A stretch of 64,000 bases of DNA, taken from NCBI GenBank assembly GCA_014728175.1, contig WJMA01000003.1, forward strand, positions 66,191 through 130,190. Reading direction: 5' to 3'. Source of the DNA: Candidatus Fermentibacterota bacterium. Its GTDB lineage: Bacteria; Fermentibacterota; Fermentibacteria; Fermentibacterales; JCC-6. Positions 22,262-36,728 of this stretch are shown here, one piece after another (position 1 is the first letter of the stretch; every line of letters begins with the position of its first letter). Position numbers and translations under genes: made by a program. Below the pieces are notes generated by a model. It was not told where the DNA came from and did no database searches. It was given only the letters and a program-made list of their open reading frames with translations.

Positions 22262-22320
22262 GGGCGGAGCCGCCCCAAAAGCGCGGAAGGGCCGGGCTTC
22301 GACCGCCCGGCCCTCCAGGA
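22262..22320 (-). terminator. rho-independent terminator after the GTPase gene (stem GGGCCGGGC/GCCCGGCCC followed by U-rich tract on minus strand)
   Basis: perfect 9-bp GC inverted repeat with 7-nt loop, then CGCUUUUGG on transcript. Confidence 0.5.
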
Positions 22321-22338
22321 TGAGTTCATCTTCCTTCG

Positions 22339-23667: not shown

Positions 23668-23843
23668 TGCCGTCCTTTCCGCAAGCTAGTGGGTACCTTG
23701 CGGGAAAGCAACAGCGAGCCTGCTCCGGCTCGGCCCTTCCCTACCTACAAAACGACCAGCCCATCGGGCTGGCGAATTGTAGTCCAGTTAATCTCCAAAA
23801 GCCACCGCACGTTGTCAACTTCACCGATCCCCAGGGCCTTTTT

Positions 23844-24299
23844 TCACCGCCCGCTTCGCCCTCCCGCCCGATCGGCCACCAGAAGGAGCGATACTCCGAA
23901 TCCACCCACGGCCCCGGTTATCATTCGGACTGCCTCCGTGCTCCGGTAGCACCCGATAAGCAGCTGCGCCAGACCGTCGACGACCACGGGTAGGAGAAGC
24001 AGGATGCCGGCGGCCACTCCCCAGCGGGGGGGCCGCAGGAAGTGGTAGAGGCTGCCACCGAACAGGCCCATCCAGAAGGAGGTGCACCGGGCACACATCG
24101 CGCTGTGCCCCCAGGGCAGGTTTATGCAGCGGGAGGGAATTCTGTGGCAAAGCCCGGAGAGCACGGGATCCAGAACCGGGATCTCTCCCGGGGGCATCAG
24201 GCCCCTGAGCAGGGAGGCGGCGAACAGGAACAACGCCGGAATTCCCACTATCAGCGAAGCCAGTCGGCGACGTCCCTCCGGCAGCCCTCTCCCGGTCAT
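23844..24299 (-). CDS. small membrane protein with conserved cysteines (DUF2085-like)
   Basis: 151 aa, 4 TM segments, CHRIPSRC...CARC pattern. Confidence 0.4.
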   Translation of the reverse strand: MTGRGLPEGRRRLASLIVGIPALFLFAASLLRGLMPPGEIPVLDPVLSGLCHRIPSRCINLPWGHSAMCARCTSFWMGLFGGSLYHFLRPPRWGVAAGILLLLPVVVDGLAQLLIGCYRSTEAVRMITGAVGGFGVSLLLVADRAGGRSGR

Positions 24300-24338
24300 T
24301 GCTCCGTCCGGAGCCTCTCTGTGGTCAAACCGCCCTTC

Positions 24339-25739
24339 CTAACCGTCGGCCCAGGTGTCCTTGGACCAGTCGAACCGCTCTCCCACCGACCCTCTGCCCA
24401 GGGTCTCCATGGCCGCGTACTCACCCATCTCGATCGAATGATCCATGTTGTTGTACCTGAACAGGCCCTGTCTTCCGCAGGTGACCGAGCCTTCCAGCTC
24501 CTCCATGGCCCGCAGCACTTCGCTCAAAGGATCGGAGTAACCCTTCCTGTAGATGGGATAGGCATGGGCCTGCCTGGAGATGGTGTGATCGATCACCTCG
24601 TCCGCCCGCAGCAATCCCAGCCTCTCGCCCCCCGTCACCGCCGCCTCCACCAGCCGGCGGTCGCCGTTCCACAGGTCGTCGTTCTCTTGGCAGCTGAACT
24701 CGAACACGGCCTGAAAACCGCCCTCGGGAGACATCCCGGGATCGAAGTTCTCCGGGAAGCTTATCCGGTTGAAGAGGTACCTGTCCTCCGATGCGTATAT
24801 CCAATGGTCTTCGACCGGAATCTCCGCGTCCACCCGGAGAGCCACGAATACCACGGCCCTGTAGAGAAGCTGCTCCGCCGACCTTTCCAAACCCTCCGGC
24901 AACACGTCTCCCAGCAGACGAACGTACTCGGGGAGGGGAATGGTGCTCACCACCCTGTCCGCCCTGAGTTGTTCGCCGGCGGTATGGATGACGAACGAGC
25001 CCTGTCCTCCGGTAATCCTCCGGGGGACCGTGCGATAATGGATCGCTCCTCCCATGTCCCCCACCCTCTCGGCCAGGACTTCGGCTATGCGGCCGATTCC
25101 TCTCCGGGGGTAATGGAAGGTGCTTACCAGGCTTCTTATCTTGCCCGAGCTGGGCAGCAGGGTCTCTCTCAGCAGACCGCTCAGGCTGGGAACCGTTATC
25201 CTCTGGCTGGCCCAGTCTACGGACAGTTGGTGGGGAGCGAAACCCCACAGCTTGGCCGTATAGGGCCGGAAATATAAGTCGTATAGCTTATGGCCGAACC
25301 TCTTGACCACCCAGTCCTCGAAGCTTTCCTCCTTCCTGGGGGCCACAATGTTGCCTAGCTTCTCGGCCATATAGCTAAAGACCATAGCCGCGCCCTGGCT
25401 CAAAGGCATTCGCCTCAGCACGTCCCCGAACGACAGTGGGTACCGGAAGTATCTGTCCAGGAGCCTTATCCTGCTCTTGCGCTCCAGCTGCATCAGCTCG
25501 TCCGGAAGAAGGTCTCTCACCCTTTCCAGGATCCAGTCCTCCTGGGTGTGGAACCTGTGCGGGCCGTGGTCGAACCGAAAGCCGTTCTCCGCGCAGGTGG
25601 AAGCCAGGCCGCCGGGGCCGGGCTCCTTCTCCAGCACGGTCACCTCGGCTCCCTCGGCGCACAGCCGCCGGGCCGCGGCCAGACCGGTCAGGCCGGCACC
25701 CAACACCACCACCCGGGGAGCGTCTGTCTCCCTACTCAT
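24339..25739 (-). CDS. FAD-dependent oxidoreductase (amine oxidase/protoporphyrinogen oxidase-like superfamily)
   Basis: N-terminal VVVLGAGLTGLAAA dinucleotide-binding motif and GLAS...GFRFDHGPH; overlaps upstream 5'-nucleotidase gene by 8 bp. Confidence 0.6.
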   Translation of the reverse strand: MSRETDAPRVVVLGAGLTGLAAARRLCAEGAEVTVLEKEPGPGGLASTCAENGFRFDHGPHRFHTQEDWILERVRDLLPDELMQLERKSRIRLLDRYFRYPLSFGDVLRRMPLSQGAAMVFSYMAEKLGNIVAPRKEESFEDWVVKRFGHKLYDLYFRPYTAKLWGFAPHQLSVDWASQRITVPSLSGLLRETLLPSSGKIRSLVSTFHYPRRGIGRIAEVLAERVGDMGGAIHYRTVPRRITGGQGSFVIHTAGEQLRADRVVSTIPLPEYVRLLGDVLPEGLERSAEQLLYRAVVFVALRVDAEIPVEDHWIYASEDRYLFNRISFPENFDPGMSPEGGFQAVFEFSCQENDDLWNGDRRLVEAAVTGGERLGLLRADEVIDHTISRQAHAYPIYRKGYSDPLSEVLRAMEELEGSVTCGRQGLFRYNNMDHSIEMGEYAAMETLGRGSVGERFDWSKDTWADG

Positions 25740-27339
25740 CCTTCCAGATTATCCTCATCCGATCGTCGGCCCTAACCGGGCTGTGCTCCCGTACGTACTC
25801 TACGACTGCCTTCAGCAGCGTAACACCCGTGTAGCGTCCGGTATGCTCCAGCATCACCTCGTAGCCTATGTTGCCCGAAGCCAGGTATCCGGTGGTAACC
25901 AGCTCGTACATGCTGTCCGGATGAACGGGCTCTCCTCCGACCAGCAGCTCTTCGGTCTTCTGGCCGTCGGGCATCGACTGGTTCCTCACCGCATGGACGC
26001 CCGATATCTCCATATCGCGTCTTCTACCGGCCATGCCCGCCTCCAGCACCTCCACCAGCTCCTCCCCGGTAAGCTCCAACACGTACAGGTCCTCCTGGAA
26101 AGGAATGGCCTGGTAGATTATACGAGGGGTAATGGGGCCCCGGGGAATGGCGGCCCTTATGCCCCCCCTGTTCATCAGAGCCACGTCTGCGCCGGTGCGC
26201 CAGGCCATGGCGTCCGCCACCAGCCTTCCCAGGGGATGTTCCGCCGGGCCCCTGGGAATCTCCTCCTCGGCCTCTCCCACCACCTCGTCCATGCCGGCCT
26301 CCGCCAGCCCGCGGAAACCTTCTATAAGCTCCGTAGCCGCGGGGTCGGGCCAGAACTCGTCGTGGAAGAGGCTGATGTACTCCTCCCCGTACGGAAGGTC
26401 GTAACCGACGAGGGTCTGGGTCTCGGTGTCCAGGGCCAGACGAATGTGTCCGATGCCCGTTCCGTTGGCGTACCCCTGGACCACTATGGTGTGGTTCACA
26501 GGGTTTATCCAGGGCTCGGCGTAGCCTATGTGAATATGACCGCTTACGATGACGTCGATGCCCGGCAGCACGGTGCTCAGCTCTACGTTGTTCAGGGCCC
26601 ACTCTTTGGCGTAGCCAGAGTCGCTTTCCCAGGATCTCAGAACCGATTCCAGGTACCTGTCCGGATCCGGAGGTTGACCCAGGTGGGAGACCAGCACCAC
26701 CACATCGGCTCCTTCCTCCCTGGCCCGATCCATCGCTCTACGGACGGTCTGTACCTCGTTGCCGAAGAGATAGCCCTCCAGCAGCGCGGGATCCACCAGG
26801 CCGTAGGTGTCCGGGGTGTTCACTCCCACGAAGGCCACCTCCACACCTTCCACGTCGCGTATCACGTACGGTTCGACCGGCCGGGGGATGCTTCCGGTCT
26901 CCGTCTGCAGGAAGTTGCAGCAAACCACGGAGAAGTCGGCCGTCCGGGCCAGCTCGACGGCGTTCTCCGCCCCGTCGTCGAAGTCGTGGTTGCCGAGGGT
27001 CATGATGTCGTAGCCCACGAAGTTCATCCACTCCACGACCAGACGGCCGGAGTCGTAATTGCCGACCGGCGTTCCCTGGTAGATGTCGCCGGCGTCTATC
27101 ATAAGGCAGTGCTCACCGCTCTCCCGGCACCTCTCACGCACCTGATCGACGTAGGCGGATATGTACGCTCCTCCCCCCATCATGGGGGGGAAGTTGGGGT
27201 TAATGAAGGAGGCCGAGGTGGGAGCTATGCCTCCATGTATATCATTGGTATGTAATATGTTAAGATATACAGTCTCCGCCGCCGGTTGAGCGGTGGCCAA
27301 AAGCAGGGCAACGAAGAGCAGGAACCGGCGTTTGGTCAC
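25732..27339 (-). CDS. bifunctional metallophosphatase/5'-nucleotidase (UshA family), secreted
   Basis: signal peptide; NDIHGG, GNHDFD metallophosphatase motifs + C-terminal 5'-nucleotidase substrate domain; GTG start at 27339 overlapping upstream stop (GTGA). Confidence 0.8.
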   Translation of the reverse strand: MTKRRFLLFVALLLATAQPAAETVYLNILHTNDIHGGIAPTSASFINPNFPPMMGGGAYISAYVDQVRERCRESGEHCLMIDAGDIYQGTPVGNYDSGRLVVEWMNFVGYDIMTLGNHDFDDGAENAVELARTADFSVVCCNFLQTETGSIPRPVEPYVIRDVEGVEVAFVGVNTPDTYGLVDPALLEGYLFGNEVQTVRRAMDRAREEGADVVVLVSHLGQPPDPDRYLESVLRSWESDSGYAKEWALNNVELSTVLPGIDVIVSGHIHIGYAEPWINPVNHTIVVQGYANGTGIGHIRLALDTETQTLVGYDLPYGEEYISLFHDEFWPDPAATELIEGFRGLAEAGMDEVVGEAEEEIPRGPAEHPLGRLVADAMAWRTGADVALMNRGGIRAAIPRGPITPRIIYQAIPFQEDLYVLELTGEELVEVLEAGMAGRRRDMEISGVHAVRNQSMPDGQKTEELLVGGEPVHPDSMYELVTTGYLASGNIGYEVMLEHTGRYTGVTLLKAVVEYVREHSPVRADDRMRIIWKDE

Positions 27340-28523
27340 AGCTCGAACCTCCGACCGATGGACAGCAGAACGGTGGTCGAGCTCTCCTCCACCACCAGGC
27401 TGTCGCCGGGGTCGAAGGAAACCATGTCCGGAACCTCCACCTGTCTCCATCTGCCTGGGCTGAAGCTGCCGCCCACGTCCAACGAGTAGTCACCCAGCCG
27501 GAAGCCCAGGCCCAGGGTGAAGGCCATCCTGTCCAGAGCCCGGGATATCGGAGAGCTGCGGTAGCTGAAGCCGAACCTGCCCACGGGCCCGCCGGGAAGG
27601 TCGTTCTCCACGCCCGCAGACATTCCCCATGCGTCCCGGTCGTACATGTCCGCGCCCTCCCGCTCCGCATCGCTTCTGGCACTGTAGTAACACTCCCCGG
27701 TGAAAACCGTCCGGAGCGCGTTCCCCGGCTCGTACACGGCCCCGGCGTGGAACACGGGGGGGAGGCTGACGCTGGCCTGCTCGTCTCCCGTCAGCTCGTA
27801 GGAAAGACTGTAATCCATTCCCGCGGATATCGCGACCCTTCCGGCGCGGTACAGGGCCGAGGCCCTGGCGCTGGCTCCGCTGACATCGGTGTCGGTTACC
27901 TGCAGGACGTCGTCCGCGGTGGGGTCCACGTAGCTCACCACCCAGCGGGAGGTTCGATTGCCGAACAGGTATCCGGCCCCCAGGCCCACCAGCAACCTCT
28001 CCGAGGGGGCGAAGCAGGCGGCCAGAGCCAACTCCGAGGCCCTCCCGCTTACCTCCAGGCGCTCCCTGGCCGTCTCCACGTAACTCTCGTCCATCACCAT
28101 TCTGTCGTAGTCGTAGCAGAAGCTGTAGGGACGGTACAAGCCGGCGGTTATGGAAACGTTGTTCGGTATTCCCACCGCCCCGGAGCCGGTGGCGGACACT
28201 CCGCCGGGAAACGTCGAGATATGCCGGTTGAACGCTTCCTCGGACTCCCCGATGCTGCTGCCGAACTCGTCGTAGACCTTCCGCAGCCTCTTCTCCATGG
28301 TCAGTCTGGTGCCTCCCGAAACCTCCACCAGCAGCCCCGGGCCCAGCAGCCCGGATAGGGCGGGATTCCTGAGCGCCCCGGTCGGGGTCAGCTCTACGAA
28401 CCCCGACTCTCCCATCGAGATGCCCCGGGCGGAGGTGGAGGGGCATGGAATGCCCATGTCCAGAACGGAGGGAAGGCTTGCCGGGATCGTTGCGAATGCC
28501 AATACGGTCAACAAGAGTGACAT
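27336..28523 (-). CDS. hypothetical outer-membrane protein, possibly FadL/PorV-like beta-barrel
   Basis: 395 aa, signal peptide, beta-rich with periodic aromatic/Gly residues, C-terminal ...GRRFEL; family assignment speculative. Confidence 0.35.
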   Translation of the reverse strand: MSLLLTVLAFATIPASLPSVLDMGIPCPSTSARGISMGESGFVELTPTGALRNPALSGLLGPGLLVEVSGGTRLTMEKRLRKVYDEFGSSIGESEEAFNRHISTFPGGVSATGSGAVGIPNNVSITAGLYRPYSFCYDYDRMVMDESYVETARERLEVSGRASELALAACFAPSERLLVGLGAGYLFGNRTSRWVVSYVDPTADDVLQVTDTDVSGASARASALYRAGRVAISAGMDYSLSYELTGDEQASVSLPPVFHAGAVYEPGNALRTVFTGECYYSARSDAEREGADMYDRDAWGMSAGVENDLPGGPVGRFGFSYRSSPISRALDRMAFTLGLGFRLGDYSLDVGGSFSPGRWRQVEVPDMVSFDPGDSLVVEESSTTVLLSIGRRFEL

Positions 28524-28535
28524 ATCTCCTCCAGG

Positions 28536-30974
28536 CTACCAGCGAAAGTCCAGCTGGCAGCGGATTCCATAACCCGTGACATGATCTCCGAAGTCCCTGA
28601 CCGCGGAGTCGGGGTCCCCCTGGTAGTGGAACTGGTCCTCCGGGTCGGGACGGTAAAGCCCGGTCCGGGGATAGAAGGTGTCCTTCCTCAGCACCCTGAA
28701 CCTGAGCTGGAGATTGTCCGACAGCGCGTTCTTGAAGGTCAGGTAGAACTTGGTCCCATCTCCGTCCAGGAAATCTATTCCCGTATCCTCGAACTCCCAC
28801 TGGCTCATCCCGTCGGTGGTCCATAGGGTCGTTCCTCCCAGAACGGACAGCCGGTCGCTGAAGTCGTGCTCCCACCGGGCGGAGAGATACCCACCGGAGA
28901 GCAGCCTGTCGTCTCCGTAGAGAGGGTTTGGGGTCAACTCGACCATTCCCAGCCTGAGGCGCACGTCGAAGTAATCGTGGGCGAAGGGGAGGAAGAAGGA
29001 GCGCAGCGTGTACTCGTGCGTTCTGGACGTCGTGGGTACCACATCGTGCATCTTGGTCTTCGACTGATACTTGTACTTCAGACGGAAGCGCACCGGGAAG
29101 TCCGCCCTGTACTCCACCTCTCCCTGGAACCTGTGGTTGTCGAAGTCGTAGGGCAACGAGCGCCAAACGTCCAGGTAGAGCTTGGGGAAGACGACCTGGT
29201 CGCTCACCTGGAACCTGCTTTCCAGATAGACCCCCTCCTCGGGCTTGGGGGTGGGCCATTCCTGCAGCTGCGAGACCAGGGGGTCGGTCAGGTAGTAGGG
29301 CTTCTCGAAGACCGTATCGTCGTAGCGCTTCTGCTCCGAAAACCCCCGGCAGTAGGGATTGGAGTAGCCCAGATCGTAGTGCCTGGCCGCGGCGGTCAGG
29401 TAGAAGTAGTCGTTCTGCCACCTGGAGGCGATCAGAAAGGCCGACGCCCCGTCGTCCTGTCTGGACAGCTCGCCTTCCAGGCTCATGGGCCCCACCACGG
29501 TCTGCCCGCTTACCCCCAAAAGGGTCATTCCGTCGGTGGCCTCCAGGGAGCGGTACTCCGGGCAGTCCCAGTAGTAGCCGTCGTTGGGAACGTCCAGGTA
29601 ATCGGCGTCCGGAAACAGGGAGTCGTCGTAGGCGATGCTCATGCCTCCCAGACCCACCGCGGTACCGGTGGGCAGTATCCCTCCCAGGTCCGCGAAGCAG
29701 TAGCCCCCGTAGGTGGTTTCGATAAGCGCGTCGGTGTAGCGGCCGCACCTGTACTGCATGGCGGCGGGAACGTTGGGCACACCGTTCTGGCTGAGTATCG
29801 CGTCCCGGCTGGAGCTGGACAGGAAGCCGTATCCCAGGAATGGACCCTGCCTGGCCTCTACCGCGGCACCGGTGAGGGCGAACTGCCGGGTGGAGGTCAG
29901 GTCCGGGTGCAGACCCCAGGGGCGTTCCAGCCGTCTGTACATAAGCTCGCCGGAGTTGTCCACCAGCAGGCCCTGACCCAGGGCCAGCCTGTAGTTGCCC
30001 AGCACCACCTGACGCAGGGGGCCCAGATGGTGGAGGGACACGAAGGCCTTGGCCTGGTCGAACCGATTACTCACCTCGCCCATGTCCATGTCCCGGAAGA
30101 GGTCGTGGCCGGCGGTGGAAAGCCTGCCCCTGGCCAGCCGTACCCCGCCCCGCATCCGGTCCCCCAGGCCCCCGGAAACCCGGTGGGTGAAGCCGGTTAC
30201 CCCCCGGGCCGAAAGCAGCTCCTCGCGGCTGGCCTGCAGCTGTTCGTAGAGAAGGGCGCTGTCCACGGGGCTGCCGGAGTAGTCGGCGCCTCCGGTGGAC
30301 ATCTCGAAAAGCGCCGACCCGAGGTTGTCCAGGGCCGCGTCGTATCCCTCCTCGTCGGAGTCCCTTCCCGCTCCTCCCTCCACGATCATCCGGTAGGAAC
30401 CGAACAGCTTCAGGGAGGATAGATCCAGCTCCCGGGTGGATACGAAGTCACGCATGTTCCGGTAACCGTAATAGCTCAGGTTCTCCACGCTCCTCAGGGA
30501 ACGTATGCTGGACACCGGACCGATGCTCCGCAGACGCCGCTCCACCGCGGCGGCGTCCACCAGGCTCACCCGGTCCAGCGACCTCAGGTCCCACGAGGTG
30601 GCTTCGTTCACCGGCAGGGGCCTGACCAGGAGGTTCTCCCACTCGGCGACCGCCGCGTCCCCGGGGCTATCCTCGGAAGCCAGCTTCTCCATCACGTCCA
30701 GAACCTCCGGAGGCAGCCGGTCCGGCTCGGGGGGAACCAGGATGCATTGTCTTCTCAGCGCCTCCAGCTCGGAGGGACCTATTCCCTCCACTTCGGTCAG
30801 CTGGTAGATGTTCTCCAGCCCACCCATCAGATAGATGTAGCGATGGAGCGAGTCGGCCTGTTCTCCGCTCACCCCCTCCAGTGCTCCTATCTCTTCCGGC
30901 GAGGCGCTGTTCAGATCCAGCCTGTCCGCGGGCCAGAGAAACACGGCCAGAGCGAGGAGCAGGCTAGAAGCCAT
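28536..30974 (-). CDS. large secreted/outer-membrane protein with N-terminal ComEA-like double helix-hairpin-helix DNA-binding domain fused to about 700-aa beta-rich domain
   Basis: signal peptide; LDLNSASPEEIGALEGVSGEQADSL...LTEVEGIGPSELEAL matches the ComEA HhH-HhH signature; rest rich in Y/G/D/R with C-terminal ...QLDFRW. Confidence 0.55.
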   Translation of the reverse strand: MASSLLLALAVFLWPADRLDLNSASPEEIGALEGVSGEQADSLHRYIYLMGGLENIYQLTEVEGIGPSELEALRRQCILVPPEPDRLPPEVLDVMEKLASEDSPGDAAVAEWENLLVRPLPVNEATSWDLRSLDRVSLVDAAAVERRLRSIGPVSSIRSLRSVENLSYYGYRNMRDFVSTRELDLSSLKLFGSYRMIVEGGAGRDSDEEGYDAALDNLGSALFEMSTGGADYSGSPVDSALLYEQLQASREELLSARGVTGFTHRVSGGLGDRMRGGVRLARGRLSTAGHDLFRDMDMGEVSNRFDQAKAFVSLHHLGPLRQVVLGNYRLALGQGLLVDNSGELMYRRLERPWGLHPDLTSTRQFALTGAAVEARQGPFLGYGFLSSSSRDAILSQNGVPNVPAAMQYRCGRYTDALIETTYGGYCFADLGGILPTGTAVGLGGMSIAYDDSLFPDADYLDVPNDGYYWDCPEYRSLEATDGMTLLGVSGQTVVGPMSLEGELSRQDDGASAFLIASRWQNDYFYLTAAARHYDLGYSNPYCRGFSEQKRYDDTVFEKPYYLTDPLVSQLQEWPTPKPEEGVYLESRFQVSDQVVFPKLYLDVWRSLPYDFDNHRFQGEVEYRADFPVRFRLKYKYQSKTKMHDVVPTTSRTHEYTLRSFFLPFAHDYFDVRLRLGMVELTPNPLYGDDRLLSGGYLSARWEHDFSDRLSVLGGTTLWTTDGMSQWEFEDTGIDFLDGDGTKFYLTFKNALSDNLQLRFRVLRKDTFYPRTGLYRPDPEDQFHYQGDPDSAVRDFGDHVTGYGIRCQLDFRW

Positions 30975-31794
30975 AGGTCACGCCCGCCTGGTGGGTGAGG
31001 TCCAGCTCCGGATGGCTTTGAACCGCGTATTCGAAACGAATGCCGGATACGGTCACTCCCAGTCCTCCCGTGGCGGTGGTGGGATTACTCTGTACTCCGG
31101 CCATCAGCGAAAGCGGCCCCAGGGGAAGGGATTGTCCCACGTGCACTCTGGTTCCCCCGAAGTCCCGGGATACGGTCACCCTGGAGCACAGACCGGTCTG
31201 GGGCTCGTAGCTCAGCCCGGCGTCCATTCTTCGCTGCAGGTAGTCCGAGCTCTCCCCCAGCCTGGCCTGGAAGGGATTCCTCACCGAGGCCGCCAGCATC
31301 CACCTGGAGTACATCCGGACCTGGAAGCCCAGGTTCCAGGCCACCGTGGTCGCACTGCCATAGCTGCCTACTCCGTCAGCTATCTGGGCCCTGCATATCA
31401 AAGGCTGTATACCCACCGACATGTCCTTGGACAGGAGTGCGGCCGCGGTCAGGGCCAGAACCTGCTCCGAGTAGAGGTCCGACCCGAAGTACCTCAGGGA
31501 AGCCGCTCCCATCACGGAGCCCCCGAGGGGGTGGGACACGTCCAGCCCATGGGTGGCGAAATCGAGCTTGGAGAACGGCAATCTGCTCTCCAGGCCCACT
31601 TCTCCGTACTCGCCGCCCGAGATGCCCGCCGGATTCCACATCACCGACCCCAGACCGGTCGCCACCACCCCGGTCCCGCCCATGGCCTGCGAGGAGACCC
31701 CGATCTGAAGCTCCTCGAAGGCGGCGTGGGCCTTCAGCGAAAACAACGTCAGGGCAACCAGTGCCGTCTTTCTCGCCAGGTTTCTCATAGGCAT
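30964..31794 (-). CDS. small outer-membrane beta-barrel protein (PorP/SprF-like size and position)
   Basis: 276 aa; signal peptide ...SLKAHA; C-terminal ...AGVTYGF aromatic terminus typical of OMPs; placed immediately after a CTD-bearing cargo gene. Confidence 0.4.
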   Translation of the reverse strand: MPMRNLARKTALVALTLFSLKAHAAFEELQIGVSSQAMGGTGVVATGLGSVMWNPAGISGGEYGEVGLESRLPFSKLDFATHGLDVSHPLGGSVMGAASLRYFGSDLYSEQVLALTAAALLSKDMSVGIQPLICRAQIADGVGSYGSATTVAWNLGFQVRMYSRWMLAASVRNPFQARLGESSDYLQRRMDAGLSYEPQTGLCSRVTVSRDFGGTRVHVGQSLPLGPLSLMAGVQSNPTTATGGLGVTVSGIRFEYAVQSHPELDLTHQAGVTYGF

Positions 31795-31795
31795 C

Positions 31796-32821
31796 TCAAT
31801 CCAGCCGCTCCGCTATCACCACGGTCTCCGTGGTGGTCATCCTGCCGCCGTCGGGTCCCACCGCCTGCAGCAGCAACACGTAGGGTCCCACCGGAAGCCA
31901 CTCATCGTTGTCGTCCCTTCCGTCCCACATCATCACGTCCCCCCCGTACCTGGAGTCTACCAGCTGGGCGACGCTCCTTCCCGCCCTGTCGAAAACGGTC
32001 AGGCTGAATCTGCAGTCGTCCGGGCCACCGTACTCCAGATGCATGCTCTCTCCCGCTCTGGGGCTGAAGGGATTGTCCCACACCGTCAGATGGAACTGCC
32101 CCGGGACCGACGGCGAGTAGACCTGCAGGTCCGACTGGCTGCGGGGAAGCAACTGATAGCCGGTCTCGTAGGGCGGCTCGCTGTCGTACTGGCCTCCCAG
32201 GCCGTATATGTACAGACGAACCCCGGGTTCTATCCCCGAGACGTCTATTCCCGTACCCTCGTCGACCCTTATCGACACCGCCGCCTGGCCGTTCCAGACC
32301 TCGAAGTTGTAGCCGCCCCCGGCCTGGGAGGGATGGCTGGCGACCGTGACCCACTGCTGCGTGGATCTGTCCCCCAGGGCCAGCAGAAGGCCCTCCAGAG
32401 ACTCGCTGACATCCTGGTGGATGACCATCTGGCTGGGCTCCGGCTCCCCCGGCGAGCCCAGATATTCCAGGTCGTACTCGCTGTCAGGCTTTATCTCCGT
32501 AAGACCGTTGTACTGAGTTATCTCCCCCGTGATTCTCAGGCTGTCTCCGGTATCGATGCTGAAGCCAGGGACGGCGCTCGAGTACACGTTTATTCCCGCG
32601 GTGGCGTCCTGCACGTAGAAACTGAGGCCACTACCGCCGGAGAAAAGGGTTCCGTTGCAGGTGGCGGTCGCCTCGATGGTCACCACCTCACCCATACGGT
32701 CGGGCAGGCCATCGCCATCGGCGTCCACTCTGGCCTCGGCCACGGTCAGCAACGGCTGGGCCGATATGCTTCCGGCCATAAGCAGCACGGCAGCCGCCGG
32801 CAGGGTTCTTACCATCCGCAC
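31796..32821 (-). CDS. secreted protein with N-terminal OB-fold of the extracellular-nuclease (ExeM/NucH/Xds-type) DNA-binding kind and C-terminal FlgD-like Ig/T9SS-type sorting domain; no catalytic nuclease domain
   Basis: signal peptide; motif GEVVTIEATAT...GLSFYVQDATAGINVY...GDSLRITGEITQYNGLTEI; C-terminal 90 aa (FHLTVWDNPFSP...LLLQAVGPDGG) resembles FlgD Ig-like CTDs. Confidence 0.45.
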   Translation of the reverse strand: MRMVRTLPAAAVLLMAGSISAQPLLTVAEARVDADGDGLPDRMGEVVTIEATATCNGTLFSGGSGLSFYVQDATAGINVYSSAVPGFSIDTGDSLRITGEITQYNGLTEIKPDSEYDLEYLGSPGEPEPSQMVIHQDVSESLEGLLLALGDRSTQQWVTVASHPSQAGGGYNFEVWNGQAAVSIRVDEGTGIDVSGIEPGVRLYIYGLGGQYDSEPPYETGYQLLPRSQSDLQVYSPSVPGQFHLTVWDNPFSPRAGESMHLEYGGPDDCRFSLTVFDRAGRSVAQLVDSRYGGDVMMWDGRDDNDEWLPVGPYVLLLQAVGPDGGRMTTTETVVIAERLD

Positions 32822-32840
32822 TCCCTTCGAAAGCGATTCT

Positions 32841-34277
32841 TCATCTTTCCGTCTCCATCTCCTCGTCGGCCAGCTCCGCCGCCCTAGCCAGGGCTTCCTC
32901 CGGACCCATACGCCCGTAGAGGGCTATCTCCACCGCCTCGGAGAGGAACTCCCTACCGTTGTACCATGCGCTGATCTGGGGCTCGAACCTGGCGTAATCC
33001 AGCTGGGCGACAACCTCCTCCAATCCCCGGCTCTCGGATAGCCTGCGCCGGGCGACCGGTTGCCGCAGCGCGGTGCTGGACACGGGAAGGTAGCCGGTTC
33101 CGGCGAACCATCTGGCCTGCTGCTCGGGCTCGGTGAACCACTTGACGAACTCCCAGGCGGCCTCCGTCCGGTCCGGGCCATGATCCGCGAACAACACTAC
33201 GTTGGTCCCGGCTATGAAAACCGCCCTCCGGCGATTCGATGGAAGGGGAGCCACGGCTATCTCGAAAGTGCTCAGACCGCTCTCGGCACGCCTTTGCATG
33301 TCCCGCTGCATGAAGGAAAGCGATACCACCGACCCCTGAACCATTGCCACCCGTCCCTCCGTGAACTCCCGCTGATGCTCGTACCCGGAGGACAGATACG
33401 CCGTACCGTCCCGATGCAACAGTTCCACCAGGAAGCCTAGAGCCTCCACTCCCTCCGTCTGCGCGAATGCGGTGCTCCGACCGTCCGGTGAGAGCAGTGT
33501 ACCTCCGTTCTGGGCCAGTAGGTTCTCGAACATCCAAACGCTGACCGTAAAGGCCGTTCCCCACCTGTCGCAGTCGTCCAGGAGGTCTCCGTCCCCGTTG
33601 CCGTCGTAAGAAAGGGTTCTCAGCAGCTCTCTATGCTGCTGCCAGGTGGAGGGAGGGGCCAGCCCCAGGCTGTCGAACAGGTCCGCATTGTAGTACAGGG
33701 CGGGGACGCTTTTGTTGAACGGAAAGCTGTAGACCCGTTCCCCGAAGGTGTTGTTCTTACGGAATACCTCGTAGAAGCGTGCCCAATCGCTCCGGGAATA
33801 TTCCCGGTCCTGGGCCATCATGGAGTCCAGGGGTACCAGCACCCCGCCGTCTATGAGCTGAGCCGTCCAGGTCTCGTAGGCCTGGGCCAGAACCGGCGGT
33901 TCTCCGGCCATGACGCTGGCCATAATCTTCTGGCTGAGCGCCCTGTAGTTGCCCATGGAAACGGCGACCACCTCGATACCCGGATGGGTGGCGTTGAACT
34001 CGGCCACCAGCGAGTCCTCAAGCAGCTCGCCGAGCGGCCCCCCCATGGCGTGCCAGAATACAACCCTGACCGTCTGCCCGGAGGTTCGGCCACCATCCGG
34101 GCGGCAGGACGGCAGAAACGGGGCCGCCAGAATCAGGAAAAGCAAGAAGCGGGACAGAGACTCCTCCCGAGATTCGTGCAGCAGAGAAAACGGAGCGTGA
34201 ATCGACCCCGGTAAATATACTCCCTCCCGATCCACCCGTAAGGTCTGAAGAGGCCGGATCCGATTGGAGATTGACAC
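32841..34277 (-). CDS. ABC transporter substrate-binding protein, family 1 (sugar-type), orphan (no adjacent permease/ATPase)
   Basis: 478 aa; lipoprotein-like signal (FLPSC); overall SBP-1 pattern; start codon uncertain. Confidence 0.6.
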   Translation of the reverse strand: MSISNRIRPLQTLRVDREGVYLPGSIHAPFSLLHESREESLSRFLLFLILAAPFLPSCRPDGGRTSGQTVRVVFWHAMGGPLGELLEDSLVAEFNATHPGIEVVAVSMGNYRALSQKIMASVMAGEPPVLAQAYETWTAQLIDGGVLVPLDSMMAQDREYSRSDWARFYEVFRKNNTFGERVYSFPFNKSVPALYYNADLFDSLGLAPPSTWQQHRELLRTLSYDGNGDGDLLDDCDRWGTAFTVSVWMFENLLAQNGGTLLSPDGRSTAFAQTEGVEALGFLVELLHRDGTAYLSSGYEHQREFTEGRVAMVQGSVVSLSFMQRDMQRRAESGLSTFEIAVAPLPSNRRRAVFIAGTNVVLFADHGPDRTEAAWEFVKWFTEPEQQARWFAGTGYLPVSSTALRQPVARRRLSESRGLEEVVAQLDYARFEPQISAWYNGREFLSEAVEIALYGRMGPEEALARAAELADEEMETER

Positions 34278-34343
34278 TGACCCCGGGTTGGAATCAATAT
34301 CACATGCATCTGCAAGGACATTCCTAGCGACTGGAGGGAAGAG

Positions 34344-34844
34344 ATGAGAGCAACCCGAATCGTTCTGGCCTTCGTCGTTCTGGCAATGGCGGTCTCCTGC
34401 GGACCGGGCAAGGCGACCGACAGGATGAAGGAGCTAATTCAGGCCATAGACGAAGGGGACGGACAGCTGGCTGCATCCATGCTTTCCCAGAGCGCCCTGG
34501 GCAAGCTTTCGGAATCGCTGGACAGGTTCAAGCGCGACCCCGGAGCGGCTTCCCAGCAGCTGACCGCAATCGGGGTACAGATAACCGCAGAGGAGCTGCA
34601 AACCATTACCCCCCGGGCCTTCGCGCGCAAGCTGGTTTCGTCCCAGGCTACGGCGGAAATAATGCGGGCGGCCAGGCCCGAGGTAACCCACGTTTCCGTC
34701 GATGGCGACACGGCCATGGTAGAGATTGAGGCGACGCTACAGAATACCAAGCAGACCATGGTTATCCGCCTGGTGGTAGAGGACGGGGAATGGAGGGTGA
34801 CCAGCCTGCCGATCAACCCGGTTAAGATCCACTTCGGGTTCTGA
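34344..34844 (+). CDS. hypothetical lipoprotein
   Basis: signal peptide + lipobox AVSC; 166 aa; no family recognised. Confidence 0.4.
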   Translation: MRATRIVLAFVVLAMAVSCGPGKATDRMKELIQAIDEGDGQLAASMLSQSALGKLSESLDRFKRDPGAASQQLTAIGVQITAEELQTITPRAFARKLVSSQATAEIMRAARPEVTHVSVDGDTAMVEIEATLQNTKQTMVIRLVVEDGEWRVTSLPINPVKIHFGF

Positions 34845-34862
34845 GAAAGTCTTACCCGTAGG

Positions 34863-35117
34863 TTACTCGGTCGGCTCCTTATCGGTTCCGTTCGAGGGGG
34901 AAGAGTTCTCCTCCTCTTTCCGGTCGGAGGGCTCGCCCTTGCGGTAGTCGGTGGCGTAGAAGCCCGGTCCCTTGAAGATCAGGCCTGCTCCGCCGGTTAT
35001 GATCCTATCCGCCTCACCTCCGCACTCCGGACAGCACGGGACCGACTCATCGGTTATCCTCTGGAACCGCTCGAAGCGGTGACCACAACGCTTGCACTCG
35101 TAGACGTAGGTTGGCAT
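34863..35117 (-). CDS. FmdB-family zinc-ribbon protein
   Basis: MPTYVYECKRCGHRFE...CPECG hallmark. Confidence 0.7.
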   Translation of the reverse strand: MPTYVYECKRCGHRFERFQRITDESVPCCPECGGEADRIITGGAGLIFKGPGFYATDYRKGEPSDRKEEENSSPSNGTDKEPTE

Positions 35118-35134
35118 TTTGACTCCCTAGCTGA

Positions 35135-36151
35135 TCATCGGTCCGATCCGGCCTCCGCCCTTTCGGCCATCCGCTCCATGTCTCTGGCCCTTACGCCCTC
35201 TCTGGCAGCGCCCAGAAGCCCGGCAATTATTATCGGAAGAAACTGCGTAGCGTGAAAGACGATGGCAAGTGCCTTGGCATCCGTGGGGCCGATTGCGGTC
35301 ATGGTGGGCATCACCACCCCGATGGCGTAGTGGACGGTTCCGGTACCCGCCGGGGTGGGAATAAGCATTCCGAACGCCGCCAGGACCAGCACCAGAAAGG
35401 GATACGACCAGCGAAGGGACAAACCCAGACTGGCGAACGCGGGAACCACCGAAACCACCAACGACAGCCACACCCCGGCGGATAGGGCGGCCACCGTGAC
35501 GACCTCTCTGCCGCTCTGTAGAACCGCCAGCCCTCTGGAGAAAGAAAGTAGCACGTTCTGGAGCTTCTCGCCCAGCTTGGAGCTCAACAGTTTCACCGGG
35601 GCGGACATGGCCCGGGCCGCCTTCTCCGACCAGATCCTCAGGGAGACCAGACCCGCCAGCACTCCGATGTAAAGAAGGCCCGCCCCGATAAGACCCAGCC
35701 TGGTGGTTTCTCCCATACTGTTCCAACCGGTCAGCAGAAGCCCGAGGGTGAAGGCAGTGAGGGTGAGACCGTCGAACAGGCGGGCCAGAACCACGGTCGC
35801 GAAGCAGGAAGCCCGGGGTATCCGGCTCTTCCTGGACAGCATCAGGGCCCTCAGCAGCTCTCCGACCCTGCCGGGCAGCAGGGAATTCACGGCGAACCCC
35901 GTAAGCAGGGGGCCCGTAATCTGGCCGAAGGAGACTTCGGAGACCGGCGCCAGCAGCACCTTCCACCGGGCTATTCTGAACAGGTAGCTGCAGGCGAGGA
36001 AAGGTATCACCAGCAAGAGCATGGGCATGGAGGCGCTCGATAGGATCTCCCCCAGGGCCGGCAGATCGGCGCGCTGGTAGGTCAGATAGAGCGCCACCAG
36101 GGCGATAACGATGCCCAGGATAAGGTTACGCCAGGTCTTAGCCTTGCTCAT
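35135..36151 (-). CDS. flippase-like membrane protein (UPF0104/lysyl-PG synthase TM-region-like)
   Basis: 338 aa, 8 TM; N-terminal KTWRNLILGIVIALVALYL and GRVGELLRA motif characteristic of the family. Confidence 0.55.
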   Translation of the reverse strand: MSKAKTWRNLILGIVIALVALYLTYQRADLPALGEILSSASMPMLLLVIPFLACSYLFRIARWKVLLAPVSEVSFGQITGPLLTGFAVNSLLPGRVGELLRALMLSRKSRIPRASCFATVVLARLFDGLTLTAFTLGLLLTGWNSMGETTRLGLIGAGLLYIGVLAGLVSLRIWSEKAARAMSAPVKLLSSKLGEKLQNVLLSFSRGLAVLQSGREVVTVAALSAGVWLSLVVSVVPAFASLGLSLRWSYPFLVLVLAAFGMLIPTPAGTGTVHYAIGVVMPTMTAIGPTDAKALAIVFHATQFLPIIIAGLLGAAREGVRARDMERMAERAEAGSDR

Positions 36152-36728
36152 GCCTCTCCTTAGAGGTTCTCGACCGAGTCAGCTGGGTCTCCAGGGCGTA
36201 GCACAGGGCATGACCGGCGACCAGCAGGCATTCCTGCACGTGGCTGGTGGTGTCGGAACTGGCCCTGATCACCACGTCACACAACTCGGCGAGCTCTCCT
36301 CCCGACCCTCCGGTCATGCCCAGGACACCCATATCCAGGCGCGACGCGGTTCTGGCGGCCTTCAGGACGTTCTCAGAGCTTCCGCTGGTGCTTATGGCCA
36401 CCAGCACGTCCCCGGGCCTGCCCAGGGCCTCCACCTGGCGGGAGAACACTTCGCCGAAATCGTAGTCGTTGGCAATCGCCGTTATGGAGGCGATGTTTCC
36501 GGTGAGAGCCACCCCGGCCAACGGTTCGCGGTCCTTCCTGAACCGGCAGGTAAGCTCGGCGGCCAGGTGCTGGGCGTCAGCGGCACTTCCTCCGTTCCCG
36601 CAGAAGATAAGCTTCCCCCCATTCCGCAGGCATCCGGCGCACAGGTCCAGGGCGGGCCGTATGCCCTCGGCATCCATGGCGCCAAGCGCGGACTTGGCCA
36701 TCTCCAGGTACGCCAAAATCTCATTCAC
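36138..36728 (-). CDS. gmhA: phosphoheptose isomerase (SIS domain)
   Basis: GNGGSAADAQHLAAEL and ISTSGSS motifs. Confidence 0.75.
   Translation of the reverse strand: MNEILAYLEMAKSALGAMDAEGIRPALDLCAGCLRNGGKLIFCGNGGSAADAQHLAAELTCRFRKDREPLAGVALTGNIASITAIANDYDFGEVFSRQVEALGRPGDVLVAISTSGSSENVLKAARTASRLDMGVLGMTGGSGGELAELCDVVIRASSDTTSHVQECLLVAGHALCYALETQLTRSRTSKERHEQG

What the first reader, a model, noticed from the sequence alone, without database searches (positions are those of the whole stretch)
28536..30974. ComEA-type double HhH domain fused to a 700-aa beta-rich (probable outer-membrane) domain
After a signal peptide, residues of about 20-80 match the ComEA signature twice (LDLNSASPEEIGALEGVSG... 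and ...LTEVEGIGPSELEAL). ComEA is normally a small periplasmic or membrane-anchored DNA receptor. Here it is the N-terminal module of an 812-aa protein whose remainder has OMP-like composition and an aromatic C-terminus (QLDFRW). A DNA receptor physically fused to a putative OM channel or platform is unusual.
Basis: seen in the sequence. Interest (0 to 1): 0.7.

Follow-up and report, generated by a model that had tools for sequence, protein, structure and literature searches.

The report
HhH-tipped outer-membrane barrel, DNA-scavenging operon
A Fermentibacteria gene encodes a large predicted outer-membrane barrel with two ComEA-like helix-hairpin-helix modules on its periplasmic end; it sits in a gene cluster conserved across several phyla whose other parts point to nucleic-acid handling, so it is a candidate for a new, untested route for DNA or nucleotides across the outer membrane.

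Summary
Window 28536-30974 (minus strand) is an 812-aa ORF with a short signal peptide, a significant HHH_3 match (residues 18-75, E=3e-11) and a second, diverged (HhH)2 copy (119-183). The rest is confidently modelled as an outer-membrane beta-barrel of about 24 strands (AF2 pLDDT 82, pTM 0.80). All fold matches are outer-membrane barrels, and none is close.

The fusion is real and old. About 840 50%-identity cluster representatives match the barrel profile at E<=1e-10, in Fermentibacteria, WOR-3, Cloacimonadota, Latescibacterota, Calditrichota, KSB1, Gemmatimonadota and some Bacteroidota. None is characterised, and no Pfam or NCBIfam model covers the barrel.

The gene sits in a tightly coupled cassette that keeps its order across phyla: a surface OB-fold/DUF5689 protein with a T9SS-type tail, a PorV/PorQ-like barrel, the HhH-barrel, a BamG/FadL-like barrel and a UshA-like 5'-nucleotidase. 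Some lineages add a PLD-domain protein or a DHH phosphoesterase.

The closest known systems are the Bacteroides ddb DNA-utilization locus and the Riemerella transformation genes. Both use a TonB-dependent-type barrel instead.

My best reading is an outer-membrane conduit or platform for nucleic-acid scavenging. One caveat: HhH module 1 lacks ComEA's DNA-contact lysine pair and is acidic, so DNA binding is unproven.

The parts
28536..30974 (-). Whole gene: 812-aa HhH-HhH-barrel protein. It is 100% identical to NCBI hypothetical protein GF402_00755, Candidatus Fermentibacteria.
   Evidence: ORF list and translation; identity to P0001
30927..30974 (-). Residues 1-16, short Sec-type leader (MASSLLLALAVFLWPA). 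The ATG overlaps the last 11 nt of the upstream PorV-like gene.
   Evidence: Sequence; classical signal peptides at the same place in distant homologues P0054, P0055, P0058
30741..30923 (-). Residues 18-78, (HhH)2 module 1. ComEA/HHH_3-type fold. Acidic, and lacks the ComEA lysine pair.
   Evidence: Pfam HHH_3 E=3.1e-11; PDB ComEA and EEPD1 hits; charge and motif analysis
30426..30620 (-). Residues 119-183, (HhH)2 module 2. A diverged duplicate carrying the nearly invariant motif Y-Y-G-Y-R-N-M-R-D-F-V.
   Evidence: hhalign module 1 vs module 2, probability 95.3%, E=2e-8; five helices in the AF2 model; conservation
28539..30407 (-). Residues 190-812, predicted ~24-strand outer-membrane beta-barrel. 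Long conserved loops lie on one side (201-260 with two helices, 332-366, 534-578). The C-terminal beta-signal is ...QLDFRW.
29052..29093 (-). Residues 628-641, strand 17. Conserved lumen-facing basic ladder R629-R631-K633-K635-Q637-K639-K641.
   Evidence: Alternation and conservation analysis on alignment A1
30964..31794 (-). 276-aa PorV/PorQ-family small OM barrel, translationally coupled to the HhH-barrel. It is the most constant partner (76 of 83 loci).
   Evidence: NCBIfam PorV_fam in 17/17 family members, best E=3.9e-27, and PorQ in 7; synteny
31796..32821 (-). 341-aa secreted protein: nucleic-acid-type OB fold (DUF5689-related) plus a C-terminal FlgD-Ig / T9SS-type sorting domain.
27336..28523 (-). 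395-aa BamG/FadL-like OM barrel immediately downstream.
   Evidence: NCBIfam BamG in 13/16 family members, best E=1.4e-13; synteny 64/83 loci
25732..27339 (-). UshA-like 5'-nucleotidase/metallophosphoesterase with a Sec signal peptide. The likely true start is the GTG at 27339, which overlaps the stop codon of the preceding gene.
   Evidence: Pfam Metallophos + 5_nucleotid_C; NCBIfam UshA E=3.8e-51; sequence at the junction; synteny 62/83 loci
32841..34277 (-). UgpB-like ABC substrate-binding protein at the head of the cluster. It lies directly upstream in the Fermentibacteria loci only (two distant loci have a 43%-identity match about 4 kb downstream), so it is probably an accessory.
   Evidence: Pfam SBP_bac_8/1; NCBIfam UgpB E=2.3e-32; present in 50/83 loci

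Best explanation
The gene encodes the central outer-membrane component of a conserved nucleic-acid capture and scavenging cassette.

Shown or predicted by computation:
- An exported 812-aa protein in which two tandem ComEA-fold (HhH)2 modules precede a ~24-strand OM beta-barrel.
- The barrel's lumen-facing positions are conserved and net basic.
- The gene is translationally coupled into an operon whose order is kept across at least five phyla: OB-fold/DUF5689 protein with a T9SS-type C-terminal domain, PorV/PorQ-like barrel, HhH-barrel, BamG/FadL-like barrel, signal-peptide-bearing UshA-like 5'-nucleotidase.

Inferred mechanism:
1. The OB/DUF5689 protein is displayed on the cell surface. It is docked through its C-terminal domain on the PorV/PorQ-like barrel, as PorV and PorQ hold PorU and PorZ, and it captures extracellular DNA or RNA.
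2. The polyanion, or oligonucleotides cut from it, crosses the outer membrane through the wide, basic HhH-barrel.
3. The two HhH modules lie in the periplasm, because they precede strand 1 of a canonical OMP topology. They hold the incoming strand, much as free ComEA does behind the PilQ secretin.
4. Periplasmic enzymes then act: the 5'-nucleotidase here, plus a small PLD-domain protein (a possible nuclease) or a DHH phosphoesterase in other lineages. They reduce the substrate to nucleosides and phosphate for uptake.

The system would therefore work like the Bacteroides ddb DNA-utilization locus, but with a different barrel that carries no TonB-dependent features.
For: Architecture:
- HHH_3 at E=3e-11; PDB ComEA hits.
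- Second HhH module.
- AF2 barrel model, pLDDT 82 / pTM 0.80.

Topology:
- 24 strands with alternating hydrophobic and polar faces.
- Turns of 2-9 residues on one side and loops of up to 60 residues on the other.
- 25 conserved basic versus 13 conserved acidic lumen-facing positions, including an R-R-K-K-Q-K-K ladder.

Operon:
- Start/stop overlaps at both flanks.
- The same gene order in Fermentibacteria, WOR-3, Cloacimonadota, Latescibacterota and Hydrothermota at only 29-40% barrel identity. Partners are present in 76, 64, 62 and 62 of 83 loci.

Nucleic-acid theme of the partners:
- The 341-aa protein models as an OB fold matching RPA and the AIM2/p202 HIN-dsDNA complex 4JBM.
- Its homologues score DUF5689 plus OB-fold.
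- DUF5689 proteins are DdbD in the B. thetaiotaomicron DNA-utilization locus and RA0C_RS04920, which is essential for Riemerella transformation (PMC12478041, PMC8459023).
- UshA-like 5'-nucleotidase.
- A PLDc_2 188-aa protein in 4 distant loci, a DHH/DHHA1 gene in L001 and an LTD protein in L002.

Partner barrels:
- PorV/PorQ family 17/17; BamG/FadL type 13/16.
- A second pair of CTD protein plus PorV-like barrel recurs in four distant loci, two of them titled WOR-3 and two unnamed.
Against: - No experiment exists for any member of the family.
- HhH module 1 is acidic (net -7; family mean -7.1). It has E/A/Q plus Q where V. cholerae ComEA has the K62/K63 pair required for DNA binding, and T/S/D where ComEA has the last hairpin glycine. 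It may not bind DNA.
- The protein is below both NCBIfam ComEA cut-offs.
- The window's own cassette contains no recognisable nuclease.
- I could not inspect model coordinates. Pore width, any plugging by the conserved loops (201-260, 332-366, 534-578) and the side of the membrane on which the HhH modules sit are inferred, not seen.
- The basic-lumen count rests on a simple alternation rule, with no control set of other porins.
- PorV/PorQ and BamG relatives are known from secretion and OMP biogenesis, not uptake.
- The shorter subfamily (620-700 aa) often keeps only the PorV-like partner and lacks the nucleotidase.
Confidence: 0.55

Rival explanations
1. Secretion or surface-attachment platform. 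The HhH-barrel together with the PorV/PorQ-like and BamG/FadL-like barrels would be an outer-membrane docking or export complex. It would place the CTD-bearing OB protein (and in some lineages other CTD enzymes) on the cell surface. The HhH modules would serve as protein-protein or structural modules, as the HhH-like fold does in T2SS GspK or PsbU. DNA would be handled only outside the cell and would not pass through this barrel.
For: - The partner barrels belong to families whose characterised members anchor surface proteins (PorV-PorU, PorQ-PorZ, BamG-BamH) (PMC12611786).
- The upstream protein has a FlgD-Ig / Por_Secre_tail type C-terminal domain that matches PorU and PorZ structurally.
- HhH module 1 lacks ComEA's DNA-contact lysines and is acidic.
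- Some homologues' HhH regions also score T2SSK or PsbU.
Against: - The 5'-nucleotidase has a plain Sec signal and no CTD. It is expected in the periplasm, so it needs a substrate that has crossed the outer membrane.
- The conserved basic lumen-facing ladder is not explained by a docking role.
- No T9SS translocon or attachment-complex enzyme (SprA, PorU) was found among the recurring neighbour families that were annotated.
- HHH_3 fused to a barrel is kept across very distant subfamilies, which argues for a specific functional coupling.
Confidence: 0.2
2. Natural-transformation entry port. The same complex would import intact DNA into the periplasm for hand-over to ComEC, replacing the type IV pilus/secretin route, as proposed for the DUF5689 protein plus barrel pair of Riemerella anatipestifer. 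The nucleotidase would only recycle the degraded strand.
For: - A DUF5689-type protein adjacent to an OM barrel is essential for transformation in Riemerella (PMC8459023). The ddb paper links that system to DNA utilization loci.
- The ComEA fold is the hallmark of periplasmic DNA capture in transformation (PMC3879209).
- Four members of the OB-protein family hit the Pfam model DUF4131; from my own knowledge, not tested here, this is the N-terminal region of ComEC.
Against: - No comEC, dprA or comF lies in the 64-kb window or in the fetched flanks.
- The tightest conserved enzyme partner is a degradative nucleotidase, sometimes with a PLD-domain protein (possible nuclease) or a DHH phosphoesterase. 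This fits catabolism better.
- Two tethered HhH modules per channel cannot form the multi-copy ratchet described for free ComEA.
Confidence: 0.15
3. Envelope tether or general porin. This would be a large porin whose N-terminal periplasmic domain anchors the outer membrane to a periplasmic structure. It would be analogous to the SLH-domain porins OmpM and SlpA or to OmpA-like proteins, with no role in nucleic-acid handling.
Against: - The matches are generic: query TM-scores are at most 0.32 and under half of the barrel is aligned.
- There is no SLH, OmpA or peptidoglycan-binding domain.
- The invariant association with OB/DUF5689, nucleotidase and PLD-domain genes is unexplained by a housekeeping tether.
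Confidence: 0.07

Closest known systems
ComEA (periplasmic or membrane-anchored competence DNA receptor; TIGR00426/TIGR01259, Pfam HHH_3)
   Same: Module 1 (residues 18-78) has the same (HhH)2 fold and matches HHH_3 and solved ComEA structures. Its predicted location is the periplasm, next to an outer-membrane opening, which is where ComEA acts.
   Different: - It is not a small free protein but the N-terminus of an 812-aa barrel, and the module is duplicated in tandem.
- It scores below the NCBIfam ComEA cut-offs.
- It lacks the K62/K63 DNA-contact pair and the full GIG hairpin, and it is acidic.
ddbABCDEF DNA-utilization locus of Bacteroides thetaiotaomicron, and the related Riemerella anatipestifer transformation genes RA0C_RS04915/04920 (PMC12478041, PMC8459023)
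   Same: The locus logic is the same: a surface OB-like DUF5689 DNA-binding protein is encoded next to an outer-membrane barrel and nucleic-acid-degrading exported enzymes. The window's 341-aa protein is homologous to DUF5689-scoring proteins. Like DdbD, it resembles the HIN-dsDNA structure 4JBM.
   Different: - The barrel is not a TonB-dependent/CarboxypepD_reg transporter. No such Pfam hits were found.
- It instead carries HhH modules.
- The DUF5689-type protein bears a T9SS-type C-terminal domain rather than a lipoprotein signal.
- Two extra FadL/PorV-type barrels are present.
- The constant enzyme is a 5'-nucleotidase rather than secreted nucleases.
PilQ secretin / type IV pilus DNA-uptake route
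   Same: The proposed role is the same: passage of DNA across the outer membrane with a ComEA-fold binder on the periplasmic side.
Large monomeric OM barrels (FimD/PapC ushers with 24 strands, Wzi, OccD porins, AlgE, TonB-dependent transporters, SlpA)
   Different: No match covers more than about two-thirds of the barrel, and query TM-scores are at most 0.32. There is no usher plug or N/C-terminal domains and no TonB plug. There is no sequence-family membership.
T9SS PorV/PorQ and Bacteroidota BamG (FadL-type 14-strand barrels), for the two flanking genes
   Same: The flanking 276-aa and 395-aa proteins hit these NCBIfam models across their families. Characterised members hold surface proteins at the outer membrane (PMC12611786).
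   Different: Scores are far below the curated cut-offs (26 vs 90 bits; 33 vs 250 bits for the window proteins). They are relatives, not orthologues. Their partner here is the HhH-barrel, not SprA or BamA.

Membership tests
ComEA (competence DNA receptor) | (HhH)2 domain matching Pfam HHH_3 / ComEA structures | tested here: met
   PF12836 E=3.1e-11, 43.6 bits above the gathering score of 27; PDB ComEA 8dfk E=1.3e-9
ComEA (competence DNA receptor) | Score above the NCBIfam ComEA thresholds (TIGR00426 domain, TIGR01259 full length) | tested here: not met
   27.5 bits vs cut-off 53.1; 26.1 bits vs cut-off 152.35
ComEA (competence DNA receptor) | DNA-contact lysine pair after the first GIG hairpin (K62/K63 of V. 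cholerae ComEA) | tested here: not met
   The equivalent positions 38/39 are E/A/Q and Q (Q in 26/34, K in 1/34). The last hairpin Gly is T/S/D. The requirement comes from PMC3879209.
ComEA (competence DNA receptor) | Binds DNA without sequence specificity | not testable with these tools
   Needs EMSA or anisotropy with the purified N-terminal region
Outer-membrane beta-barrel protein (BAM substrate) | Signal peptide, even number of amphipathic antiparallel strands closing a barrel, short periplasmic turns and long external loops, C-terminal aromatic beta-signal | tested here: met
   AF2 model; strand-face analysis; fold hits exclusively OMPs; C-terminus QLDFRW. All of this is prediction, not experiment.
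Secretin (PilQ/GspD) | Secretin C-terminal domain and N-domains; multimeric pore | tested here: not met
TonB-dependent transporter (including DdbC / RA0C_RS04915 type) | N-terminal plug domain, TonB box, 22-strand TonB_dep_Rec barrel, often a CarboxypepD_reg domain | tested here: not met
LptD / BamA-TamA (Omp85) | LptD beta-jellyroll or POTRA domains plus the family barrel | tested here: not met
ddb-type DNA-utilization locus | DUF5689 surface DNA-binding protein encoded next to the OM transporter | tested here: met
   The 341-aa neighbour is homologous (33-34% identity over 88-96%) to proteins scoring PF18942+PF01336. Its cassette counterpart in L051 scores DUF5689 at E=1.9e-13. Its structure matches 4JBM.
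ddb-type DNA-utilization locus | DdbC-type TonB-dependent transporter | tested here: not met
   The barrel here is a different, HhH-bearing family
ddb-type DNA-utilization locus | Secreted or periplasmic nucleases in the locus | tested here: inconclusive
   No nuclease domain in the window's cassette. A small PLDc_2 protein is present in 4 distant loci and a DHH/DHHA1 gene in one. The 5'-nucleotidase is present in 62/83 loci.
ddb-type DNA-utilization locus | Required for depletion or use of exogenous DNA | not testable with these tools
   Needs genetics in a cultivable carrier

The most novel reading that the evidence does not exclude
The HhH-barrel is a self-contained outer-membrane nucleic-acid translocon that needs neither TonB nor a pilus. 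A wide basic barrel would admit DNA or oligonucleotides handed over by a surface OB/DUF5689 receptor. Its own tethered periplasmic HhH modules would rectify the movement. On this reading it is the core of an ancient five-gene DNA-feeding (and possibly transformation) machine shared by Fermentibacterota, WOR-3, Cloacimonadota, Latescibacterota, Calditrichota, Gemmatimonadota and some Bacteroidota.
Probability: 0.3. Interest if true: 0.85.

Novelty: new variant of a known kind. Interest (0 to 1): 0.62.

Why it matters
How DNA or its fragments cross the outer membrane is understood mainly for type IV pilus/secretin systems. Since 2021-2025 it has also been described for a TonB-dependent-type barrel paired with a DUF5689 protein in Bacteroidota.

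This cassette pairs the same kind of surface DNA-binding protein with a different barrel that has ComEA-fold modules built into it. It is conserved across several largely uncultured phyla that are common in anaerobic digesters and sediments. Those are habitats where extracellular DNA is a major phosphorus and carbon pool.

If the reading is right, it would:
- define a third route for nucleic acids across the outer membrane;
- give a function to a protein family with hundreds to thousands of sequence clusters and no Pfam or NCBIfam model for its barrel;
- provide a genomic marker for DNA scavenging in these phyla.

It also suggests a role for PorV/PorQ- and BamG-like barrels outside secretion and OMP assembly.

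Tried and rejected
1. The plus-strand reading of the stated coordinates contains two in-frame stops. The gene is on the minus strand.

2. I first took the '2 stretches' of the EEPD1 PDB hit as evidence for the second HhH module. The printed alignment shows both stretches use query positions 13-104. I dropped that argument and tested module 2 directly with hhalign.

3. Riemerella RA0C_RS02645, an HhH protein essential for transformation, was considered as a possible characterised member. The paper places its HhH domain at residues 236-301, describes three HhH domains and reports homologues in Firmicutes and Actinobacteria. That fits a ComEA-like protein, not this barrel family. Neither the paper nor its supplement gives the sequence or length, so membership could not be tested.

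4. A Foldseek search of AFDB50, to find annotated or cultivable relatives, failed because the library was not available.

5. The promoter/terminator scan of 22000-36500 gave counts equal to shuffled expectation. It says nothing about operon boundaries. The operon inference rests on gene overlaps and synteny instead.

6. Secretin, LptD, BamA/TamA, usher and TBDT identities were all considered. No sequence-family hit was found and the structural similarity is only generic.

7. Literature searches for an HhH-barrel fusion found no description of this family.
Full report
**1. The observation**

The coordinates 28536..30974 delimit a real open reading frame of 812 codons, but it lies on the minus strand. 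The plus-strand frame contains two in-frame stops. The product is 100% identical to an NCBI 'hypothetical protein' of a Candidatus Fermentibacteria MAG. The window is about 62% G+C throughout, with nothing compositionally odd at the locus.

The N-terminus (MASSLLLALAVFLWPA) is a short hydrophobic leader. Distant homologues have textbook signal peptides with basic n-regions at the same position, so export is well supported.

Residues 18-75 match Pfam HHH_3 at E=3.1e-11, 43.6 bits against a gathering score of 27. A profile of the family finds solved ComEA structures (8dfk E=1.3e-9, 8dss, 2duy) and the HhH pairs of human EEPD1.

**2.

A second module follows a proline-rich linker. AlphaFold2 predicts five more helices at 106-175. 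A profile-profile comparison of residues 14-84 against 104-184 gives 95.3% probability (E=2e-8) over 65 columns. The protein therefore carries two tandem (HhH)2 modules.

Pfam does not recognise the second one. It has lost the glycine hairpins but holds the most conserved motif of the whole N-terminal region, Y-Y-G-Y-R-N-M-R-D-F-V.

I first misread the '2 stretches' on EEPD1 as support for module 2. The alignment shows both stretches use module 1.

**3. The C-terminal 620 residues**

No Pfam or NCBIfam model matches them, even at E<=10.

AlphaFold2 on a 34-sequence alignment gives mean pLDDT 82.2 and pTM 0.80, with about 24 long antiparallel strands from residue 190 to 811.

- Foldseek agrees, with SlpA, OmpT, AlgE and PapC/FimD.
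- No match covers more than about two-thirds of the barrel, and query TM-scores stay at or below 0.32.

On the family alignment every strand shows a hydrophobic face alternating with a polar face. Connections are 2-9 residues on one side and up to 60 on the other. The chain ends in ...C-Q-L-D-F-R-W, an OMP-type beta-signal.

This is the canonical topology in which both termini are periplasmic. The HhH modules, which precede strand 1, are therefore inferred to sit in the periplasm. I could not inspect coordinates, so pore width and possible plugging by the conserved loops (201-260 with two helices, 332-366, 534-578) are unknown.

Among lumen-facing positions, 25 are conserved basic and 13 conserved acidic. 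Strand 17 carries a ladder R629-R631-K633-K635-Q637-K639-K641. This is suggestive of a polyanion path, but it rests on a simple alternation rule without a control set.

**4. How widespread the fusion is**

- All 58 close relatives have the same length, and 38 of them carry a precomputed HHH_3 hit.
- A profile of the C-terminal region alone (A2, module 1 excluded) was searched against 1.84 billion cluster representatives. It found 3168 proteins at E<=1e-3, 842 at E<=1e-10 and 104 at E<=1e-30.
- Ten of the distant hits were scanned, and all ten carry an N-terminal HHH_3 domain. Seven are 620-670 aa; the others are 801, 944 and 1251 aa (the last with TPR repeats in front).
- In species-representative genomes there are 152 relatives, in Fermentibacteria, WOR-3, Cloacimonadota, Latescibacterota and Hydrothermota.
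- The shorter subfamily occurs in Calditrichota, KSB1, Gemmatimonadota and some Bacteroidota MAGs.
- Two literature searches found no description of the family.

The fusion is therefore genuine, ancient and common in these lineages, yet uncharacterised.

**5. The surroundings carry the main functional signal**

The gene sits in a minus-strand run with almost no intergenic space:

| Position (-) | Product |
|---|---|
| 32841-34277 | UgpB-like binding protein |
| 31796-32821 | 341-aa secreted protein |
| 30964-31794 | 276-aa barrel |
| 28536-30974 | HhH-barrel |
| 27336-28523 | 395-aa barrel |
| 25732-27339 | 5'-nucleotidase |

The barrel's ATG overlaps the upstream gene by 11 nt. The nucleotidase's probable GTG start overlaps the preceding stop codon.

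I ran tblastn with the window's neighbours against 83 fetched loci. It finds the 276-aa barrel in 76, the 395-aa barrel in 64, the 341-aa protein in 62 and the nucleotidase in 62. With few exceptions the order is the same, including in other phyla where the HhH-barrel is only 29-40% identical.

The binding protein lies directly upstream only in the Fermentibacteria loci; two distant loci have a 43%-identity match about 4 kb downstream. The downstream amine-oxidase-like flavoprotein and 442-aa gene were found only in a subset of loci (22 and 17 of 83), so I treat all three as accessory.

In the shorter subfamily the most constant partner is the PorV-like barrel directly upstream (L086 E=8e-61; L087 E=2e-46).

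**6. Identity of the partners**

*The 341-aa protein.*
- It models at pLDDT 91.4.
- Its C-terminal Ig-like domain matches T9SS PorU and PorZ.
- Its WOR-3 homologues (33-34% identity over about 90% of the length) score DUF5689 + OB-fold + FlgD_ig.
- In L051 (titled Cloacimonadota) the corresponding cassette gene scores DUF5689 (E=1.9e-13) with a sub-threshold Por_Secre_tail match (22.8 vs 27 bits). The L063 counterpart passes the Por_Secre_tail threshold (34.7 bits). In another lineage the corresponding gene carries a lamin-tail domain.

*The 276-aa family.* It hits NCBIfam PorV/PorQ in 17 of 17 members, best E=3.9e-27.

*The 395-aa family.* It hits BamG in 13 of 16 members, best E=1.4e-13. BamG is a FadL-type 14-strand barrel that anchors the surface lipoprotein BamH (PMC12611786).

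*The nucleotidase.* It is UshA-like (E=3.8e-51), with a plain Sec signal and no sorting tail, so it is expected in the periplasm.

*Additions in distant cassettes.*
- A 188-aa single PLDc_2 protein; small single-domain PLD proteins include nucleases such as Nuc (my own knowledge, not tested here).
- A DHH/DHHA1 phosphoesterase.
- A second 'CTD protein + PorV-like barrel' pair.

**7. Comparison with what is known**

DUF5689 is the domain of DdbD in the ddbABCDEF DNA-utilization locus of B. thetaiotaomicron. That locus is required for depletion of exogenous DNA. DdbD is modelled as the surface DNA-binding partner of the TonB-dependent-type barrel DdbC and was noted to resemble 4JBM (PMC12478041).

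DdbC and DdbD are homologous to RA0C_RS04915 and RA0C_RS04920, which are essential for natural transformation in Riemerella anatipestifer (PMC8459023).

The cassette here shares the DUF5689/OB surface protein and the theme of exported nucleic-acid-degrading enzymes. It differs in three ways:
- The barrel has no Plug, TonB_dep_Rec or CarboxypepD_reg domain and instead carries HhH modules.
- The OB protein has a T9SS-type tail instead of a lipoprotein signal.
- Two FadL/PorV-type barrels flank the central barrel.

It is not a secretin, LptD, Omp85 or usher by any sequence test, and only generically similar in structure.

**8. Most likely mechanism (inferred)**

1. The OB/DUF5689 protein is displayed on the surface, docked via its C-terminal domain on the PorV/PorQ-like barrel, and captures extracellular DNA or RNA.
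2. The polymer or its fragments cross the outer membrane through the wide, basic HhH-barrel.
3. The tethered periplasmic HhH modules hold the incoming strand, as free ComEA does behind PilQ (PMC3879209).
4. The periplasmic 5'-nucleotidase, with a PLD-domain protein or a DHH enzyme in other lineages, releases nucleosides and phosphate.

I give the scavenging reading about 0.55. Within it, actual passage of nucleic acid through this barrel's lumen is the weakest step, at roughly 0.4.

**9. Evidence against, and rivals**

The main caveat is that module 1 does not look like a competent ComEA.
- It has net charge -7 (family mean -7.1).
- The lysine pair K62/K63 is needed for DNA binding and transformation in V. 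cholerae; K63E abolished transformation and prevented co-localisation with DNA in E. coli, and K62/63A abolished binding in vitro. Here the equivalent residues are E/A/Q and Q, with Q in 26 of 34 sequences and K in 1.
- The protein is below both NCBIfam ComEA cut-offs.
- Module 2 keeps an invariant G-Y-R-N-M-R at the equivalent hairpin and may be the functional binder. That is conjecture.

The window's cassette has no recognisable nuclease.

Rivals:
- A surface-attachment or secretion platform in which the HhH modules are structural (0.2).
- A transformation entry port (0.15). No comEC, dprA or comF lies nearby, and the conserved partner is degradative.
- An OmpM/SlpA-like tethering porin (0.07).

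**10. Verdict**

Its functional gloss ('DNA receptor fused to a channel') is plausible but unproven for the HhH part.

I rate it a new variant of a known kind: a DNA-utilization/uptake locus built around a different outer-membrane protein, which itself is an undescribed family.

Interest is 0.62. A specialist in DNA uptake or outer-membrane transport would find the architecture and its conservation surprising, and it is directly testable. Every functional step still rests on inference, and the organism itself is uncultured.

Noticed in passing
window 42151-43521 (-): A 456-aa ORF combines a full TatD_DNase domain (E=1e-68) with a C-terminal Radical_SAM domain (E=4e-20). I did not check whether this is a real fusion or a missed stop or start between two genes.
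   Followed up: no
window 25732-27450 (-): The longest ORF of the 5'-nucleotidase begins at the ATG at 27450, inside the preceding gene. The likely true start is the GTG at 27339, which overlaps that gene's TGA (GTGA). It yields a normal signal peptide MTKRRFLLFVALLLATAQPAAE.
   Followed up: yes
L056 4818-6922; L058 5581-7696; L062 12614-14853; L083 11486-13674: In four distant loci (L058 and L083 are titled WOR-3, L056 Latescibacterota, L062 unnamed) the cassette ends with an extra pair. It consists of a ~435-aa protein with a FlgD_ig/CHU_C tail (and a weak DUF3604 hit), followed by a second PorV-like barrel. This repeats the 'CTD protein next to PorV-like barrel' pattern seen at the head of the cassette.
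   Followed up: partly
L051 11532-12098; also L054, L063, L072: A 188-aa single-domain PLDc_2 protein (E=1.3e-25) is inserted between the BamG-like barrel and the nucleotidase in four distant loci; L051 is titled Cloacimonadota and the other three are unnamed. Small single-domain PLD proteins include nucleases such as Nuc (my own knowledge), but nuclease activity was not tested here.
   Followed up: partly
L088 3692-8995: An abundant 664-aa member of the shorter barrel subfamily (its cluster has 447 members) has no HHH_3 hit on record. It lies directly after a 1099-aa CarboxypepD_reg/OMP_b-brl_4 barrel, which carries the same regulatory-like domain reported for RA0C_RS04915, the Riemerella homologue of DdbC, and a Na/Pi cotransporter. 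This may link the two kinds of DNA-locus barrels.
   Followed up: no
L084 4801-8920: In one relative the HhH-barrel (639 aa) is preceded by a 406-aa protein with several HHH_3 domains. Before that lies a 324-aa protein with no Pfam hit on record; from reading its sequence it looks like a lamin-tail domain plus an Ig-like tail, which I did not test.
   Followed up: partly
protein P0111 (1251 aa): A variant of the family has about 400 residues of TPR repeats in front of the HhH modules and barrel.
   Followed up: no
window 24339-25739 (-) and 22339-23667 (-): An amine-oxidase-like flavoprotein and a 442-aa protein with only weak CobW/HypB-like hits follow the cassette. They are co-conserved with it in 22 and 17 of the fetched loci, including loci titled Fermentibacteria, Sabulitectum and Hyd24-12. 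Their relation to the cassette is unknown.
   Followed up: no
window 39518-41365 (-) and 17066-18514 (-): Two long ORFs (615 aa and 482 aa) have no Pfam hit at E<=1e-4. The 482-aa ORF overlaps a 722-aa ORF on the other strand, so it may not be coding.
   Followed up: no
window 4223-6061 (+): A 612-aa protein combines retropepsin-like aspartyl protease domains (Asp_protease_2, two stretches) with a C-terminal PDZ domain.
   Followed up: no
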